The notes: generated by a model from the letters alone, not told the origin. Counted from the stretch's first letter, positions 13,865 to 20,227 are shown. The stretch is DNA of 32,000 nucleotides from Nitrososphaerota archaeon (GCA_028867275.1 JAGWGU010000002.1:21222-53221), one strand, 5' to 3'. Numbers and translations are program-made.

Positions 13865-13924
13865 CGATCTTAACTTTTACGATACTAGCACATTCCCACG
13901 AACAAATCGGTGGTAAACCATTTT
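13865..13924 (+). repeat. terminal-type repeat copy X (same orientation as copy Z)
   Basis: The last 13 nt, GGTAAACCATTTT, are identical to 18022-18034. The upstream ~45 nt are roughly two-thirds identical by eye (TTTTACGA, ACAT, CCC blocks). Confidence 0.6.
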
Positions 13925-13942
13925 GTCGACAGCGAGTAAAAA
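13925..13942 (+). repeat. inverted copy of the aEF-2 3' end (last 4 codons, stop, then AAA)
   Basis: GTCGACAGCGAGTAAAAA is the exact reverse complement of 18032-18049, which encodes VDSE-stop of aEF-2. Confidence 0.85.
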
Positions 13943-13997
13943 TAGAATCCCCCTTTTCACGAAGGTAAACATGTCATTGTCGTAAAACTTTAGAACA
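13940..13997 (-). repeat. terminal-type repeat copy Y (inverted relative to X and Z)
   Basis: 13969-13997 (ACATGTCATTGTCGTAAAACTTTAGAACA) is the reverse complement of 17975-18003 with one mismatch in 29. The outer ~30 nt are diverged but share the A-run and a CCCCC/GGGGG block. Confidence 0.75.
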
Positions 13998-14115
13998 ATC
14001 AATCAAGATCATGTGATCAATGAAATCATCATCTAGGGAACAAGGATTTATCATAAGAAATGACAATAGTTAACACACACAAATCATCATTTCTTTCCAG
14101 AGGCATAAAGGCATC

Positions 14116-14238
14116 ATGAAAAAGAAGTCACTGCCATTATCACAAGTATATCGCCTGCTTGAACCAGGTCCTGTTGTGCTGCTTACTACATTTGACTCAA
14201 AACGTCCCAACATAATGACAATGTCTTGGCACATTATG
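14116..14238 (+). pseudogene. flavin reductase-like (FMN-binding split-barrel) gene, N-terminal ~41 codons only
   Basis: MKKKSLPLSQVYRLLEPGPVVLLTTFDSKRPNIMTMSWHIM resembles the N-terminus of flavin reductase domain proteins (YRLL.PGPVVLVTT....NIMT.SWH). Similarity stops near 14238 and no other frame continues it. Confidence 0.5.
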
Positions 14239-14483
14239 TTATTTTCCTCTCAAATGGCTTTTACAGGTTTAAGGACATATGGAAGAAACGAGGCATAGGA
14301 TACGATAATGAGAAAAAACAGGAAAATGAATATGAGTATACTCTAGCGGATAAGGACGGTATGCTATACATCAAGGTCAAGACCACTAGAAATACGCACA
14401 TCAAGAGCGGTATTCTGTTCAATATGCTCAAAGAGGTGGGTAAAATTGAGATTTATGAAGAAGAAAATCAACCTAAATTCTGA
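14226..14483 (+). CDS. hypothetical ORF (85 aa; start uncertain)
   Basis: ORF track only; TTG start inside the flavin-reductase fragment; no motif. Confidence 0.25.
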   Translation: MAHYVIFLSNGFYRFKDIWKKRGIGYDNEKKQENEYEYTLADKDGMLYIKVKTTRNTHIKSGILFNMLKEVGKIEIYEEENQPKF

Positions 14484-17043: not shown

Positions 17044-17047
17044 GAAC

Positions 17048-17956
17048 TCAATCTTCGTAAAGTGATCGTTGTTCTGTCGGATTTGTACCTAGTATTACTG
17101 TCATGATGTCTTCTGGAATGCATCTTTCGGAATTAGGATTAACTACGTGAAATTCTTCAGTACGAATAACCTGCTCATCGGTAAGTGTATCTAGAAAAAT
17201 ATATTCGTTGAGAATCCAAATCAGCATTACCTTAGGCATTGAAGATATAATAATTCCAATTTCGTGTTTTAATTCGGTAATTTCTTTCTCAATGAGTTGA
17301 TTGTTTGTAGATATCTCGATGGCTATTATTCCTGTAGCATTAAATGATTCTAGTTGGTTATTTGCAACGTGAATTGTGTCTGTAATATTTGAAACACTGT
17401 AGGAATTCTTGGAACGTTTCTTTTTACATTCCACTAAGGTTGAACCAGAACTAGAAGTTATTCGTAAGTCAGGGGTTTGTTCATTCCTTAATTCTTTGAT
17501 AAATTCTACTCTAAAACCACCATTTAAAAAATAATTTGCGACCTTCAGTTCAAAATAAGTGCTGTCAAACTTATCTATTGGAATGACTTGGTCTTTTTTT
17601 CTGTTCTCTTTAGCGTATGCCCTAAGTTTAGTTTGAATATTGGTCTTACCTAGTAAATTTTTAAGAAATACTGCAAACGCAATTAGACGTATGAACTTAC
17701 TAGGGTCTCCGCTACCCAAGTAATAAGAAATAGGAGATTGATTATTTCTTGAAAGCGTTTGGACATCAAACGATGCATTCATTTCTTTTCCAGCTCTTTC
17801 ATACCATTCTTTTCCAAGTACATGCAAAATAATCTGGAGTGCCATTAGAAGTTCCTGGACGTTATGATTGTGTCTAGGATCATCGGGTTTGCCTGCTACA
17901 CGCAATGCGTCTTGTTGTATTTGTGATTTTTCAGGATCAGAAAAAAGTTTCAACAA
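17048..17956 (-). CDS. PD-(D/E)xK nuclease-fold candidate (302 aa), immediately upstream of cas1
   Basis: The segment YFELKVANYF...GFRVEFI...TPDLRITSSSGSTLVECKKK gives the ordered E ... PD ... ExK pattern of restriction-endonuclease-like folds. The N-terminal ~130 aa are helical with no match. TTG start; the stop lies 4 nt before the cas1 ATG. Confidence 0.6.
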   Translation of the reverse strand: MLKLFSDPEKSQIQQDALRVAGKPDDPRHNHNVQELLMALQIILHVLGKEWYERAGKEMNASFDVQTLSRNNQSPISYYLGSGDPSKFIRLIAFAVFLKNLLGKTNIQTKLRAYAKENRKKDQVIPIDKFDSTYFELKVANYFLNGGFRVEFIKELRNEQTPDLRITSSSGSTLVECKKKRSKNSYSVSNITDTIHVANNQLESFNATGIIAIEISTNNQLIEKEITELKHEIGIIISSMPKVMLIWILNEYIFLDTLTDEQVIRTEEFHVVNPNSERCIPEDIMTVILGTNPTEQRSLYED

Positions 17957-17974
17957 TTTAGAAGGATCTTTTAA

Positions 17975-18034
17975 TGTTCTAAAGTTTTACGACAACGACA
18001 TGTCCCCAAGCATAATTTGGGGGTAAACCATTTT
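17975..18034 (+). repeat. terminal-type repeat copy Z, abutting the aEF-2 stop codon
   Basis: See copies X and Y. It ends GGTAAACCATTTT immediately before TTA (the reverse-complemented stop) at 18035. Confidence 0.75.
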
Positions 18035-20227
18035 TTACTCGCTGTCGACGTACTCGTCTGGTGTTGGCACTTCGGGGGCCAATCCTTTTCTCTTTCGTAT
18101 ATCGCCAATTACCTTGGTCAGGATGGAGTTTGGAACTGGAGTCCATGCCTTGAAATGAGTGTTCCACATTGCACGTCCTGCAGTCTGTCCACGCATTATC
18201 TCTGACAAGTCAAATGTCTCAGATGCTGGAAGCTCACCTGATATGATATGTATGACACCTTTTTGTTCCATATTTAGCACCTTGCCTCTCTTGCCAGAAA
18301 TTACACCTGCAACGTTACCAATCATTTCTTGTGGCACACGTACCTCTATTCCAAGTGTTGGTTCAAGCAACACAGGCTGTGCCAAAAGCATTGATCCAGT
18401 ACAGGCTCTTCGAGAAGCAGGTCCTAGTTGTGATAGACCTCGGTGAGCTGGATCCTCGTGTGGAACAAAGTGCGTAAACGTAAACTTGGCACCCCTTACC
18501 TGTTCTCTTGCAAGTGGACCCTCTTTAACAGAATCTTCAAAACCTGAAAGTATAGAATCTGTAGATTCTCCAACAAACTGGACACCCTTGGTCCCATCTA
18601 CCATGACATTACCTCTTACATCAAATCTCATTACACGTTTTGCCTCGTCGCCATCCCATCCTGCATCTTTTAGAATCTTGGCAACTTCCTTCTTATCCTT
18701 GTATTCGTTTAATGTTCCGTTTCTTATCATCTCAGCAATCTTTTCATCCAATGGTTCTACTTTCATGAAGATCTTGTTGTGTCTGTTAGGTGACTTGGAC
18801 ATGATAGGTCCAGCAGAGCCACGAATTGTCTCTCTATAATTAATCAATGGCTGAGATGTGATAATATCCACCTTGGCATCTGCAATCAATGCAGTTGCAA
18901 TCTCCAGGTGCAGCACACCCATGCCAGCAATTACAGTCTCACCTGATTCTTCGTTAATTTTTACAACCAGGTTAGGGTCTTCTATTGTAATACGGTTTAA
19001 TGCTTCAACAAGTTTTGGCAAGTCCTTGGGATGTTTTGGCTCTACTGCAATTTGCACGACAGGCTCTGATACATACTGGATTCCCTCAAATGCCTGGATA
19101 CCTGCAATAGATGACAAAGTTTGACCTGCTCTTGCATGCTCTAGTCCAAGCAAAGCTGGAATATTTCCTGCCGCAAGTTCTCCCACCATTTCTCTTTGGT
19201 TACCCATGAAAAAGTTGACAGATTGGACTCTGCCTTCCCGTTTTGTATCAATCAAGTGTATCCTGTCACCATCTTTTATCTTGCCAGAGAATAGACGCCC
19301 TATTGCAACAGGACCAGCTGCAGGATCTACTGTCATGTTTACAATCATCATCACAGTGGGGCCGTTATCATCACAGTTCAAAAGTGCTTTACCAATATCA
19401 GAATCTAAATCACCCTTCCAAATCTTTGGGATCCTATATTTTTGTGCAACATCAGGAGATGGATGATGTTTTACAACCATTCCAAGTACTGCGTCATACA
19501 ATGGAGCCTTTTCTGCCAATTTTTTGACATCGCCGCCCTCAGAATATGCTTCATAGATATCCTTAAACGAAATTCCTTTCTTCTTCATCACATCTGCATT
19601 AAATCCCCACTTGTCCTTTGCAGAACCAAATGAGACACTACCGTCCTGGATGCTTACCTTCCACTTTTCCTTGTATTCAGGCTCTGCGTAAATGTCAACT
19701 AGTCTGTTAAAGTTGGTAATAATCTCAAGTAACCATTCTTGCATCTTATCTGGAGGCAATCTTAGCTCCTTTATGAGACGGTCAATTTTGTTTATGTAAA
19801 GAACAGGTCGCACTCTTTCTTCTAATGCCTGACGGGTTACAGTCTCAGTCTGTGTCATGATACCTTCAACTGAATCTGACACCACAACTGCACCGTCAAT
19901 TGCTCTAAGACTTCTTGTTACTCTACCAGTAAAGTCAATGTGTCCTGGAGTGTCTATCATGTTGATTACATATTCTTCTCCATTTTGTTCATAAAGTAAA
20001 GTAACGTTTGCCTGGACGATTGTCATCTGTCTGTCTTGTTCAAGTTTCATCGAATCAAGTGCAAGAGCTTGTCCTGCAACAGATGGACTGATGATACCAC
20101 TAGATGCAAGAAGACTATCACTCATGGTTGTCTTTCCGTGGTCTACGTGAGCTATGACTCCAAAGTTGCGAATGTTCTTCTTATTACCAATAATGCTTAG
20201 AATTTGATCTGTCGCCTTGAACTTCAT
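18035..20227 (-). CDS. fusA: translation elongation factor 2 (aEF-2)
   Basis: 730 aa with GTPase motifs AHVDHGKTT, DTPGH and NKID. The diphthamide-site motif HEDPAHRG is present and the protein is full length. Confidence 0.97.
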   Translation of the reverse strand: MKFKATDQILSIIGNKKNIRNFGVIAHVDHGKTTMSDSLLASSGIISPSVAGQALALDSMKLEQDRQMTIVQANVTLLYEQNGEEYVINMIDTPGHIDFTGRVTRSLRAIDGAVVVSDSVEGIMTQTETVTRQALEERVRPVLYINKIDRLIKELRLPPDKMQEWLLEIITNFNRLVDIYAEPEYKEKWKVSIQDGSVSFGSAKDKWGFNADVMKKKGISFKDIYEAYSEGGDVKKLAEKAPLYDAVLGMVVKHHPSPDVAQKYRIPKIWKGDLDSDIGKALLNCDDNGPTVMMIVNMTVDPAAGPVAIGRLFSGKIKDGDRIHLIDTKREGRVQSVNFFMGNQREMVGELAAGNIPALLGLEHARAGQTLSSIAGIQAFEGIQYVSEPVVQIAVEPKHPKDLPKLVEALNRITIEDPNLVVKINEESGETVIAGMGVLHLEIATALIADAKVDIITSQPLINYRETIRGSAGPIMSKSPNRHNKIFMKVEPLDEKIAEMIRNGTLNEYKDKKEVAKILKDAGWDGDEAKRVMRFDVRGNVMVDGTKGVQFVGESTDSILSGFEDSVKEGPLAREQVRGAKFTFTHFVPHEDPAHRGLSQLGPASRRACTGSMLLAQPVLLEPTLGIEVRVPQEMIGNVAGVISGKRGKVLNMEQKGVIHIISGELPASETFDLSEIMRGQTAGRAMWNTHFKAWTPVPNSILTKVIGDIRKRKGLAPEVPTPDEYVDSE

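What the first reader, a model, noticed from the sequence alone, without database searches (positions are those of the whole stretch)
13865..18049. Inverted, not direct, duplication of the aEF-2 3' end, plus three copies of a ~57-nt terminal repeat forming a palindromic junction
GTCGACAGCGAGTAAAAA at 13925-13942 is the exact reverse complement of 18032-18049, the last four aEF-2 codons, the stop and AAA. Reading inward from both copies the similarity continues: the ~30 nt nearest each end have diverged, then 29 nt match with one mismatch (13969-13997 vs 18003-17975). The block is thus framed by ~75-bp imperfect inverted repeats that include coding sequence of the host gene. A third copy, X (13865-13924, ending in the same GGTAAACCATTTT as 18022-18034), lies on the other side of the 15-mer. 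As a result 13865-13997 is a large imperfect palindrome centred on the aEF-2 tail copy. A simple insertion with target-site duplication predicts direct copies of the target, so the inverted copy needs explaining. One option is two elements side by side, followed by inversion through recombination between their inverted termini. Another is termini that themselves carry a replacement aEF-2 3' end. The best-conserved part of all three copies (TCGTAAAA[C/G]TT[T/A]AGA) lies 30-35 nt upstream of the first inward-facing gene (the C2H2 gene for X, the nuclease-like gene for Z). It may therefore be a terminal promoter, a casposase-binding site, or both.
Basis: seen in the sequence. Interest (0 to 1): 0.78.

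Follow-up and report, generated by a model that had tools for sequence, protein, structure and literature searches.

The report
Flipped target-site copy between decayed casposons
Two worn-out casposons (Cas1-carrying transposons) sit one after the other behind the elongation factor 2 gene of a Nitrosotalea archaeon, and the 13-bp target-site copy they share has been turned around, most likely by a small local inversion between their facing ends; this is a rearranged form of a known element, not a new system.

Summary
The exact 18-mer, the 29/30 match and three copies of a roughly 60-nt terminus are all present. A profile built only from other genomes finds exactly these three sites (E ≤ 7e-10).

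The locus is a tandem array of decayed family-1 casposons at the ef-2 (aEF-2) 3' end. Element A (13938-18036) keeps a frameshifted cas1 and a polB stub. Element B (11739-13924) keeps a C2H2 gene and a cas1 scrap.

It is direct and degenerate and lies at 11726-11738. The true target-site duplication (TSD) is 13 bp, GTCGACAGCGAGT, and only the middle copy is inverted.

Among 83 ef-2 loci, 13 extra TSD copies are direct and 5 inverted, always between casposon termini. Only the facing termini X and Y both bracket the flipped copy and share homology. I therefore favour a local inversion of the junction centre (13 to about 100 bp), confidence 0.55.

The "large palindrome" does not fold better than shuffled sequence. 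The conserved TCGTAAAA motif lies 24-34 nt upstream of the first inward ORF in 31 of 46 termini, which supports a terminal promoter. The idea that the termini carry a replacement ef-2 end is not supported.

Verdict: a new variant of a known kind, of moderate interest.

The parts
18035..20227 (-). aEF-2 (ef-2) gene, 730 aa, the casposon target gene
   Evidence: ORF. It is 98% identical to aEF-2 of Ca. Nitrosotalea devanaterra and Nitrosotalea MAGs.
18037..18049 (-). T1: TSD copy 1, GTCGACAGCGAGT, the last codons of aEF-2. The stop codon TAA is completed by the first two A of the terminus tip.
   Evidence: Homologous position to the 13-bp TSD ATTGATAAAGAGT of the N. koreensis casposon (PMC8464041).
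17970..18036 (-). Z: class-1 casposon terminus (TIR) of element A next to aEF-2. Modules: tip AAAAAATGGTTTACC, hairpin-like CCCCAAATTATGCTTGGGG, inner ACATGTCGTTGTCGTAAAACTTTAGAAC.
   Evidence: nhmmer E 4e-16 with a profile built without window sequences. Same tip and hairpin type in L001, L095, L098, L100.
17048..17956 (-). 302-aa cargo ORF, possibly a PD-(D/E)xK (Mrr-like) nuclease. It starts 22 nt inside the Z promoter-like motif.
   Evidence: Weak Pfam Mrr_cat hit (E 0.0095, below the cut-off). No PADLOC hit. The exact protein occurs in 4 Logan contigs.
15999..17043 (-). cas1 (casposase) pseudogene, broken into three frames by two frameshifts
   Evidence: Pfam Cas_Cas1 on two of the pieces. 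tblastn with N. devanaterra casposon Cas1 covers residues 1-63, 63-253 and 250-350 at 78-92% identity in three frames.
14667..15986 (+). 439-aa ORF of unknown function (cargo; the N-terminus looks hydrophobic by eye)
   Evidence: No Pfam or PADLOC hit. No relatives in the loci or in metagenome contigs.
14229..14637 (+). Remnant of the casposon polB gene (last ~135 codons only)
   Evidence: tblastn with the 629-aa polB-like ORF of L056: residues 494-629 at 82% identity. Element A is therefore non-autonomous.
14116..14241 (+). Flavin-reductase-like gene fragment just inside Y
   Evidence: Weak Pfam Flavin_Reduct hit. 83% aa homologue next to an X-type terminus in L006 element E1.
13938..14002 (+). 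Y: terminus of A facing the junction. It is chimeric: the outer 30 nt are class-2-like (AAAAATAGAATCCCCCTTTTCACGAAGG) and the inner 30 nt are class-1 (ACATGTCATTGTCGTAAAACTTTAGAAC).
   Evidence: nhmmer E 7e-10. The five nearest neighbours of the outer 30 nt are all class-2 termini. The inner part matches Z at 29/30 (I1).
13925..13937 (+). T2': shared TSD copy between A and B, inverted relative to T1 and T3. With its A-run it matches T1 at 18/18.
   Evidence: Same orientation in the independent unitig L085.
13865..13924 (-). X: class-1 terminus of element B. Tip AAAATGGTTTACC, hairpin-like CCACCGATTTGTTCGTGGG, inner AATGTGCTAGTATCGTAAAAGTTAAGA.
   Evidence: nhmmer E 4e-12. Nearly identical tip and hairpin in the right end of the N. 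devanaterra casposon and in L088, L091, L097, L102.
13883..13979 (.). Largest segment inferred to have flipped. It is bounded by the only perfect inverted words shared by the arms, TTTTACGA (13875-13882) and TCGTAAAA (13980-13987). The minimum flipped segment is the 13-bp TSD alone.
   Evidence: Inference.
13708..13845 (-). 45-aa C2H2 zinc-finger gene, the first inward gene of X
   Evidence: Pfam zf-C2H2, E 5e-6. Homologues lie next to casposon termini in L014, L006, L004, L097.
12460..12525 (+). Scrap of a second cas1 (N-terminal 22 codons) inside element B
   Evidence: tblastn E 3e-4, 64% identity to Cas1 residues 1-22. Matching scraps in L004, L039, L042, L074, L077.
11739..11813 (+). W: class-2 casposon terminus, the distal end of element B
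   Evidence: nhmmer E 9e-9. Class-2 termini bound a full casposon with cas1 and polB in L090.
11726..11738 (-). T3: third TSD copy, GTCTATGGCGAGT, direct orientation, 3 mismatches. It is the last recognisable TSD of the array.
   Evidence: (I4).
17978..17992 (-). Promoter-like inner motif TCGTAAAACTTTAGA in Z. The same motif occurs at 13980-13994 (+) in Y, and as TCGTAAAAGTTAAGA at 13868-13882 (-) in X.
   Evidence: In 31 of 46 unique class-1 termini from other genomes the first inward ORF starts 24-34 nt after the TCGTAAAA core.

Best explanation
The region downstream of ef-2 is an array built by repeated casposase-mediated insertion of family-1 casposons into the same 13-bp target, GTCGACAGCGAGT.

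Order of events:
- An older element B inserted first. It has a class-2 end W and a class-1 end X, and it left T3.
- A NitDev-like casposon A then inserted at the ef-2-proximal target. This created the twin copies T1 and T2 (inferred).
- Both elements then decayed: cas1 frameshifts, polB deletion (shown).
- The junction end-of-A | T2 | end-of-B consists of two termini facing each other across the TSD. After insertion, the centre of this junction was inverted by intramolecular recombination or replication template-switching between the two inverted arms (inferred).

The flipped piece is at least the 13-bp TSD, bounded by its T-run and A-run. At most it is about 97 bp (13883-13979), bounded by the conserved TTTTACGA/TCGTAAAA words. 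In the larger case the tip and hairpin modules of the two termini changed sides. That would explain why Y now has a class-2-type outer half on a class-1 inner half.

The conserved inner motif most likely acts as an inward-facing archaeal promoter for the first gene at each end (inferred from spacing).
For: Shown:
- Element identity: cas1 pseudogene and polB stub. Three class-1 termini and one class-2 terminus. Three TSD copies in orientation + - + relative to ef-2.
- Canonical reference: the N. devanaterra ef-2 casposon has the same layout with a direct middle TSD (PMC6563490).
- Age order: T2' equals T1 at 18/18, while T3 has 3 mismatches in 13. This fits A being the latest insertion at the ef-2-proximal target.
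- Geometry: only two inverted terminus pairs bracket T2'. Z x W has no homology (z -0.8). X x Y does (z 6.0; longest shared word TCGTAAAA).
- Recurrence: 5 of 18 extra TSD copies in 83 loci are inverted, each lying between casposon termini, and the arms differ between genomes, so the events are independent.
- Short blocks do flip in these termini. The two TIRs of the intact L090 casposon are identical except for a reverse-complemented 10-16-nt block (TTGTGCGTAG versus CTACGCACAA). Both orientations occur among homologous termini (10 versus 11).

Suggestive:
- Un-flipping 13883-13979 raises the alignment score of the flavin-reductase-linked end to the L006 E1 end (25 to 41), to the N. devanaterra right end (10 to 36) and to Z (28 to 33).
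- It also raises the score of the C2H2-linked end to L014 (21 to 36) and to L006 (24 to 30).
- The five nearest neighbours of the outer 30 nt of Y are all class-2 termini. Outer and inner classes agree in 54 of 59 reference termini.
Against: - No un-flipped allele was found.
- The present arms share only an 8-nt perfect word, and the junction does not fold better than shuffles. A hairpin or recombination route needs the arms to have been more alike when the flip happened.
- Tip and hairpin modules are not stably tied to one end of an element. In L097 the X-type module sits at the cas1-proximal end, and C2H2-linked ends carry three different hairpin types. The gains from un-flipping could therefore be coincidental.
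- The unitig L085 crosses the junction without a branch, so there is no abundant ongoing flip-flop in that sample.
- The data cannot separate recombination from a casposase-catalysed event.
Confidence: 0.55

Rival explanations
1. Casposase-mediated intramolecular 'inside-out' transposition, as in Tn10/IS10 inversions. The two tips that flanked the old middle TSD were cut and attacked T1 in the same chromosome. This inverted element A and left a fresh, inverted copy of T1 between A and B.
For: It explains the exact T1 = T2' identity beside an older T3. It explains breakpoints exactly at TSD borders and needs no homology. The same 'identical twins in inverted orientation around one element' pattern is seen in L006, where T3' equals T4 at 15/15. 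Casposons occur in both orientations relative to ef-2.
Against: - No such reaction is known for casposases.
- It keeps termini attached to their interiors, so it does not explain the chimeric Y or the improvement on un-flipping.
- The twin pattern is explained equally well by a local flip of one twin.
- The cas1 here is a pseudogene, although it may have been active earlier.
Confidence: 0.15
2. The whole block between T1 and T3 (A + T2 + B) was inverted as a unit. Either its outermost termini recombined, or it excised as a composite element and re-inserted the other way round.
For: Read on the plus strand, W ... cas1 scrap ... C2H2 - X | T | Y resembles the array in N. bavarica (L014), T1|class-2 ... 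C2H2 class-1|T2|class-1, over 340 nt at 79%. Composite mobilisation is a general property of transposons (established knowledge).
Against: - The outer termini Z and W share no homology (z -0.8), so recombination between them is unlikely.
- Re-insertion of a composite would make T1 and T3 identical twins. Instead T3 has 3 mismatches while the internal T2' has none.
- The 79% match to L014 is carried largely by the C2H2 gene and the generic terminus family.
Confidence: 0.1
3. The element's termini themselves include the ef-2 tail (TIRs extended over the target, for example by panhandle repair during protein-primed replication). Element A would then bring an inverted tail copy with it.
For: T plus the terminus forms a roughly 78-bp inverted repeat around A. 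The tip regenerates the AA of the stop codon.
Against: - Y and Z are unrelated in the 30 nt between the tail and the shared inner part (z -0.6).
- In other genomes the 13-mer behaves as a direct TSD, and it matches the experimentally defined TSD (PMC8464041).
- This model predicts two adjacent tail copies at the insertion site, which are absent.
Confidence: 0.04
4. Assembly artefact or chance similarity.
For: Repeats and palindromic junctions are classic places for mis-assembly.
Against: An independent Logan unitig from SRR32006850 is 100% identical across 16376-13711, including the junction. The chance expectation for the 18-mer is about 0.01. Inverted copies recur in other assemblies.
Confidence: 0.02

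Closest known systems
Family-1 casposons of Thaumarchaeota integrated at the 3' end of ef-2 (NitAR1-C1, NitAR2-C1, NitNF5-C1/C2, and the ef-2 casposon of Ca. Nitrosotalea devanaterra; PMC4046053, PMC6563490)
   Same: Same target gene and position. Cas1 is 78-92% identical to the N. devanaterra element. The polB is of the same family. The TIRs are about 60 nt. The 13-bp TSD is homologous to the N. koreensis TSD (PMC8464041).
   Different: Here cas1 is frameshifted and polB is reduced to about 135 codons, so the element is non-autonomous. Its two flanking TSD copies are inverted instead of direct.
Tandem casposon arrays that share one TSD (Methanosarcina spp., PMC4779613; Ca. Nitrosopumilus adriaticus NF5, PMC6563490)
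   Same: Two elements inserted one after the other into the same target and separated only by a TSD copy, with one or both copies inactivated.
   Different: In the published arrays the shared TSD is described as a direct repeat. Here, and in at least three other Nitrosotalea-type loci, it is inverted. I found no report of this.
Hairpin-associated minute inversions and inverted-repeat-mediated spacer inversion (chloroplast non-coding DNA; recA-independent inversion between close inverted repeats in E. coli). Cited from my own knowledge, not checked in the library.
   Same: A short spacer between two inverted arms flips, recurrently and independently in related lineages.
   Different: The arms here are transposon termini and the spacer is a TSD. 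The present arms are too diverged to form a stable hairpin.
Intramolecular inversion by Tn10/IS10 inside-end transposition. Cited from my own knowledge.
   Same: The product has an inverted segment flanked by inverted copies of the target duplication.
   Different: The enzyme class differs (DDE transposase versus Cas1-type casposase). No evidence exists that casposases perform this reaction.

Membership tests
Family-1 casposon | Encodes a Cas1-family casposase | tested here: met
   Pfam Cas_Cas1 (E 1e-25), and 78-92% identity to the Cas1 of the N. devanaterra casposon over residues 1-350. The gene has two frameshifts, so it is a pseudogene.
Family-1 casposon | [quoted passage not shown] | tested here: not met
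   Only the last ~135 codons remain (14229-14637, 82% identity to the L056 629-aa ORF). The element descends from a casposon but is no longer self-synthesising. Pfam does not recognise even the intact L056 protein, so the polB assignment rests on PMC6563490.
Family-1 casposon | Terminal inverted repeats | tested here: met
   Z and Y share 29/30 nt in the inner part. Both match the terminus profile built from other genomes. Their outer 30 nt are unrelated.
Family-1 casposon | Flanked by direct target-site duplications | tested here: not met
   A is flanked by T1 and an inverted T2'. B is flanked by the inverted T2' and a direct T3. Only the composite A+B is flanked by direct copies, T1 and T3, and T3 has 3 mismatches.
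Family-1 casposon | Site-specific insertion at the 3' end of ef-2 without disrupting the gene | tested here: met
   The terminus Z starts immediately after the 13-bp TSD that ends the aEF-2 ORF. The stop codon is completed by the tip.
Tandem casposon array with shared TSD | Two elements, each with its own termini, separated only by one TSD copy | tested here: met
   Y | 13-bp TSD | X with no other sequence between them. The orientation of the shared TSD is reversed.
Active invertible (flip-flop) DNA switch | Both orientations co-exist in one population | tested here: not met
   The unitig L085 crosses the junction without a branch in SRR32006850. Low-frequency variants cannot be excluded without reads.
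Archaeal promoter inside the TIR | BRE/TATA-like element at a fixed distance upstream of the transcription start | tested here: inconclusive
   The first inward ORF starts 24-34 nt after the TCGTAAAA core in 31 of 46 termini, versus 26% of random positions within a 30-nt window. This holds ahead of different first genes. No transcript data are available.

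The most novel reading that the evidence does not exclude
The flips are not passive accidents but by-products of the casposon's own machinery. Either the casposase acts on two tips that face each other across a shared TSD (inside-out intramolecular transposition), or hairpin-type intermediates arise at the termini. The second possibility is hinted at by the reverse-complemented 10-16-nt block that distinguishes the two TIRs of an otherwise intact casposon (L090).

In vivo excision of the M. mazei casposon leaves one TSD and seems to need two direct copies (PMC10359463). 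Turning the shared TSD around could then lock each member of a tandem pair in place and leave only the composite mobile. That would be a simple route to fixation and domestication of casposon arrays at ef-2.
Probability: 0.15. Interest if true: 0.7.

Novelty: new variant of a known kind. Interest (0 to 1): 0.45.

Why it matters
Casposons are the presumed ancestors of the CRISPR adaptation module, and how they excise, replicate and decay is still poorly known.

This locus and its relatives show three things:
- The ef-2 3' end of Nitrosotalea and Nitrosotenuis is a long-lived landing pad. It is occupied by arrays from two casposon lineages.
- The shared TSD in such arrays is inverted in roughly a quarter of cases.
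- Terminus modules are shuffled between neighbouring elements.

This matters for annotation, because pipelines that look for TIRs plus direct TSDs will miss or mis-delimit such elements. It may also matter for mobility: if excision needs two direct TSD copies, an inverted shared TSD would immobilise the individual elements.

The constant spacing between the conserved inner TIR motif and the first gene gives a directly testable prediction of TIR-borne promoters.

Tried and rejected
- Phage database search with 11500-18100: no match.
- tRNA scan and Rfam gathering scan of the whole window: nothing. The termini are not known RNAs and no tRNA target is involved.
- Exact look-ups of aEF-2 and of the 439-aa ORF: not on record.
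- Metagenome scan with the 439-aa ORF: no relatives.
- Viral-contig scan for the junction 22-mer: none.
- PADLOC on the three cargo ORFs: none.
- Search for an empty ef-2 site to define the ancestral flank: not found. About 66 of 80 loci have a class-1 or class-2 terminus-like sequence directly after the TSD, and the other 14 gave no profile hit.
- Class-2 sequence as native flank: rejected. It occurs as inverted pairs around elements (L015, L090), and in L090 it bounds a full casposon with cas1 and polB.
- Fixed 'left-type' and 'right-type' termini: rejected. The same terminus type occurs on either side of the TSD.
- Recombination between the outermost termini Z and W: rejected for lack of homology.
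- Using the conserved 98-aa gene (11192-11488) as a synteny anchor: uninformative. Homology stops at the gene ends, and the gene's orientation differs from that in four other genomes.

Full report
**1. Checking the observation**

The sequence facts hold.
- aEF-2 is the 730-aa ORF at 18035-20227 on the minus strand.
- The 18-mer at 13925-13942 is the exact reverse complement of 18032-18049. The expected number of matches, even with up to 3 mismatches, is 0.01.
- Y (13969-14002) and Z (17970-18003) are inverted repeats at 91% over 34 nt.
- X (13868-13924) is a direct 57-nt copy of Z at 72%.

To avoid circularity I built a profile of this terminus family from other genomes only. It hits the window at Z (E 4e-16), X (4e-12) and Y (7e-10) and nowhere else below E 0.1.

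Two parts of the description need correction.
- The outer 30 nt of Y and Z are not diverged copies. They are no more alike than shuffled sequence (z -0.6).
- The "large imperfect palindrome" 13865-14002 does not fold better than shuffles (DNA MFE -8.3 kcal/mol, z +0.7). The corresponding junction in N. devanaterra is a strong palindrome (-29.8 kcal/mol, z -7.4).

An independent Logan unitig from SRR32006850 (L085) is 100% identical to 16376-13711 and crosses the junction in the same orientation. The inverted copy is therefore not an artefact of this assembly.

**2. What the region is**

The host is a Nitrosotalea: its aEF-2 is 98% identical to that of Ca. N. devanaterra and related MAGs.

Between Z and Y lie, in order:
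- a 302-aa ORF with a weak Mrr-like signal;
- a cas1 gene split into three frames, 78-92% identical to the Cas1 of the N. devanaterra ef-2 casposon;
- a 439-aa ORF of unknown function;
- the last ~135 codons of the casposon polB;
- a flavin-reductase-like fragment.

This is a decayed, non-autonomous family-1 casposon, element A. Family-1 casposons at the ef-2 3' end, including one in N. devanaterra and a tandem pair in N. adriaticus, are published (PMC4046053, PMC6563490).

A third tail copy lies at 11721-11738, in direct orientation with 3 mismatches. It abuts a terminus of a second class, W (11739-11813, E 9e-9). Between X and W lie the C2H2 gene and a 22-codon scrap of another cas1 at 12460-12525. 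This is element B.

Class-2 termini are not native flank. In L090 they bound a complete casposon that has polB, a Cas1 54% identical to the N. devanaterra Cas1, and direct TSDs.

**3. The target-site duplication**

In every canonical junction the tail copy is preceded by TTTTT and followed by AAAAA. The duplicated unit is the 13-mer GTCGACAGCGAGT. It aligns with ATTGATAAAGAGT, the 13-bp TSD defined experimentally for the N. koreensis family-1 casposase. In that work the neighbouring T-run and A-run were likewise shown to lie outside the TSD (PMC8464041). The AA of the aEF-2 stop codon is therefore supplied by the terminus tip.

In the direction of aEF-2 the window reads:

T1 (18049-18037) | Z> A <Y | T2' inverted (13937-13925) | X> B <W | T3 (11738-11726).

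Only the middle copy is inverted.

**4. Is it a one-off?**

I scanned 83 loci that contain the end of aEF-2 for copies of each locus's own 13-mer flanked by a T-run and an A-run.
- The scan found 18 extra copies in 14 loci: 13 direct and 5 inverted. About one false positive is expected in each orientation.
- Confident inverted cases are the window, L004, L020 and L006.
- In L006 the inverted copy is identical at 15/15 to the next, direct copy, although both differ from the aEF-2 tail at three positions.
- L029 has a degenerate inverted copy with an indel.
- All inverted copies lie between casposon termini.
- The arms differ between genomes, except for one arm shared by L004 and L020, so these are several independent events.

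The refutation condition "element-independent feature" is not met.

**5. Mechanism**

Integration by a Cas1-type enzyme can only produce direct duplications, so a later rearrangement is needed. An inversion through homologous inverted sequences must use a pair that brackets T2'. Among the recognisable termini there are only two such pairs.
- Z x W: no similarity (z -0.8).
- X x Y: similar (z 6.0), with TCGTAAAA as the longest shared exact word.

That points to a local flip of the junction centre.

Three further observations agree with it.
- T2' equals T1 at 18/18 while T3 has decayed. This is expected if A was the latest insertion at the ef-2-proximal target, created T1 and T2 as twins, and one twin then flipped.
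- Y is chimeric. The five nearest neighbours of its outer 30 nt are all class-2 termini, while its inner half is class-1. In the reference set, outer and inner classes agree in 54 of 59 termini.
- Un-flipping 13883-13979 improves the match of both ends to their relatives:

| End compared | Reference | Alignment score before | After |
|---|---|---|---|
| Flavin-reductase-linked end | L006 E1 end | 25 | 41 |
| Flavin-reductase-linked end | N. devanaterra right end | 10 | 36 |
| Flavin-reductase-linked end | Z | 28 | 33 |
| C2H2-linked end | L014 | 21 | 36 |
| C2H2-linked end | L006 | 24 | 30 |

Un-flipping also gives A the same AAAATGGTTTACC tip at both ends, as in intact casposons. It gives B class-2-type tips at both ends.

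Independent evidence shows that short blocks flip in this sequence family. The two TIRs of the intact L090 casposon are identical except for a reverse-complemented 10-16-nt block. Both orientations are common among homologous termini.

**6. Limits**

- I cannot fix the extent of the flip. It may be the TSD alone or up to about 97 bp.
- Module linkage is variable among genomes: the X-type module is at the cas1-proximal end in L097, and C2H2-linked ends carry three hairpin types. The un-flipping result is therefore suggestive only.
- The present arms are too diverged for a stable hairpin.
- No un-flipped allele was found, and the unitig shows no abundant polymorphism.

A casposase-catalysed inside-out intramolecular event would give the same twin pattern and cannot be excluded (0.15). 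Inversion or re-insertion of the whole A+B composite is disfavoured by the lack of Z-W homology and by T3 being older than T2' (0.10). TIRs that include the tail are disfavoured for the reasons in sections 1 and 3 (0.04).

**7. The conserved motif**

TCGTAAAA(C/G)TT(T/A)AGA is the best-conserved part of class-1 termini. In 31 of 46 unique termini from other loci, the first inward ORF of at least 40 codons starts 24-34 nt after the TCGTAAAA core, with a peak at 28-31 nt. For random positions, 26% fall within a 30-nt window. In the window the spacing holds ahead of two different first genes: the C2H2 gene behind X and the 302-aa ORF behind Z. In the N. devanaterra locus (L056) a 139-aa first ORF starts 20 nt after the core, just short of that range.

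This fits an inward-facing archaeal BRE/TATA-type promoter that drives leaderless or nearly leaderless transcripts. That reading is an inference, and shared ancestry of termini plus first genes contributes to the signal. A role in casposase binding could not be tested. The published family-1 enzyme tolerates wide variation in TIR sequence (PMC8464041).

**8. Comparison and novelty**

The element is a decayed member of family-1 casposons in a tandem array, and both are known. What I did not find in the literature searched is three things:
- an inverted shared TSD;
- its recurrence;
- the mosaic and flip-flop structure of the termini.

Krupovic et al. (PMC4779613) mention TIR x TIR recombination only as a possible cause of whole-element inversion.

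I rate this a new variant of a known kind, with moderate interest (0.45). If excision requires two direct TSD copies, as the single empty site left by the M. mazei casposon suggests (PMC10359463), the flip would immobilise the individual elements. That consequence is an inference.

Noticed in passing
window 11721-11813: A third, direct but degenerate copy of the aEF-2 tail (TTTTTACTCGCCATAGAC, 3 mismatches) abuts a second class of casposon terminus (AAAAAGGCGATCCCC...TATGATTTGTTGGAAG). This makes the array about 6.3 kb long, not 4 kb.
   Followed up: yes
L090 212-7215 (metagenome contig Ga0207664_10002986): An intact class-2 casposon has two TIRs that are identical except for a reverse-complemented 10-16-nt block (…CCCCCGTTT[TTGTGCGTAG]AAAATCC… versus …CCCCCGTTT[CTACGCACAA]AAAATCC…). 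Among homologous termini of other loci, 10 carry one orientation and 11 the other. This is a flip/flop inside the TIR.
   Followed up: partly
L001-L080, immediately downstream of aEF-2: About 26 loci have a class-1 terminus-like sequence directly after the ef-2 TSD, about 40 have a class-2 one, and 14 gave no profile hit. No clearly empty site was seen. Many of these hits look like solo termini or remnants.
   Followed up: partly
window 10487-10504, 11790-11807, 12328-12345: Three plus-strand copies of the class-2 inner motif (A[CG]GT[CT]ATGATTTGT[CT]GGA). The copy at 12328 lies about 130 nt upstream of a cas1 N-terminal scrap (12460-12525). These suggest further casposon debris beyond and within element B.
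   Followed up: partly
window 11192-11488: A conserved 98-aa gene that also lies downstream of ef-2 in L004, L013, L016 and L018 (81-91% aa identity). It runs opposite to ef-2 in the window but in the same direction in those four genomes. Homology stops at the gene ends.
   Followed up: partly
window 10863-11111: An 82-aa ORF is 76% identical to an ORF that directly precedes a cas1 fragment in L020 (7919-8164). The region distal to T3 may therefore also be casposon-derived.
   Followed up: no
termini, nt ~8-36 from the tip (e.g. window 18003-18022, 13893-13911, 13952-13968): There is a small C-run/G-run hairpin-like module whose stem differs between lineages: CCCCAA/TTGGGG, CCCTG/CAGGG, CCCGA/TCGGG, CCTT/AAGG. 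Perfect stems of at least 5 bp occur in 30 of 102 unique termini, against about 9 expected from shuffles. The enrichment is modest.
   Followed up: partly
L097 (222-kb metagenome contig Ga0307372_10000024), 776-6878: Five TSD-like copies on strands - - + - - lie next to an intact NitDev-like casposon (Cas1 92% and polB 90% identical). This is another long array with one odd-oriented copy. ef-2 itself is outside the stored stretch.
   Followed up: no
L081-L086 versus window: Logan unitigs from SRR32006850, SRR32006849 and SRR5574340 match the window at 100%. They break at 16886, 16376 and 13711-13739. L083 (SRR32006840) is a 98.3% variant of 18206-16886. These breaks point to strain-level variation in the array.
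   Followed up: no
window 8208-9122: A 304-aa ORF starts with a CPRCG...CGNCG zinc-ribbon and looks like a TFB/TFIIB by eye. It was not tested. It lies near a small ORF (9258-9515) and a membrane ORF (9585-10229) that sit upstream of ef-2 in L008, so local synteny is rearranged.
   Followed up: no
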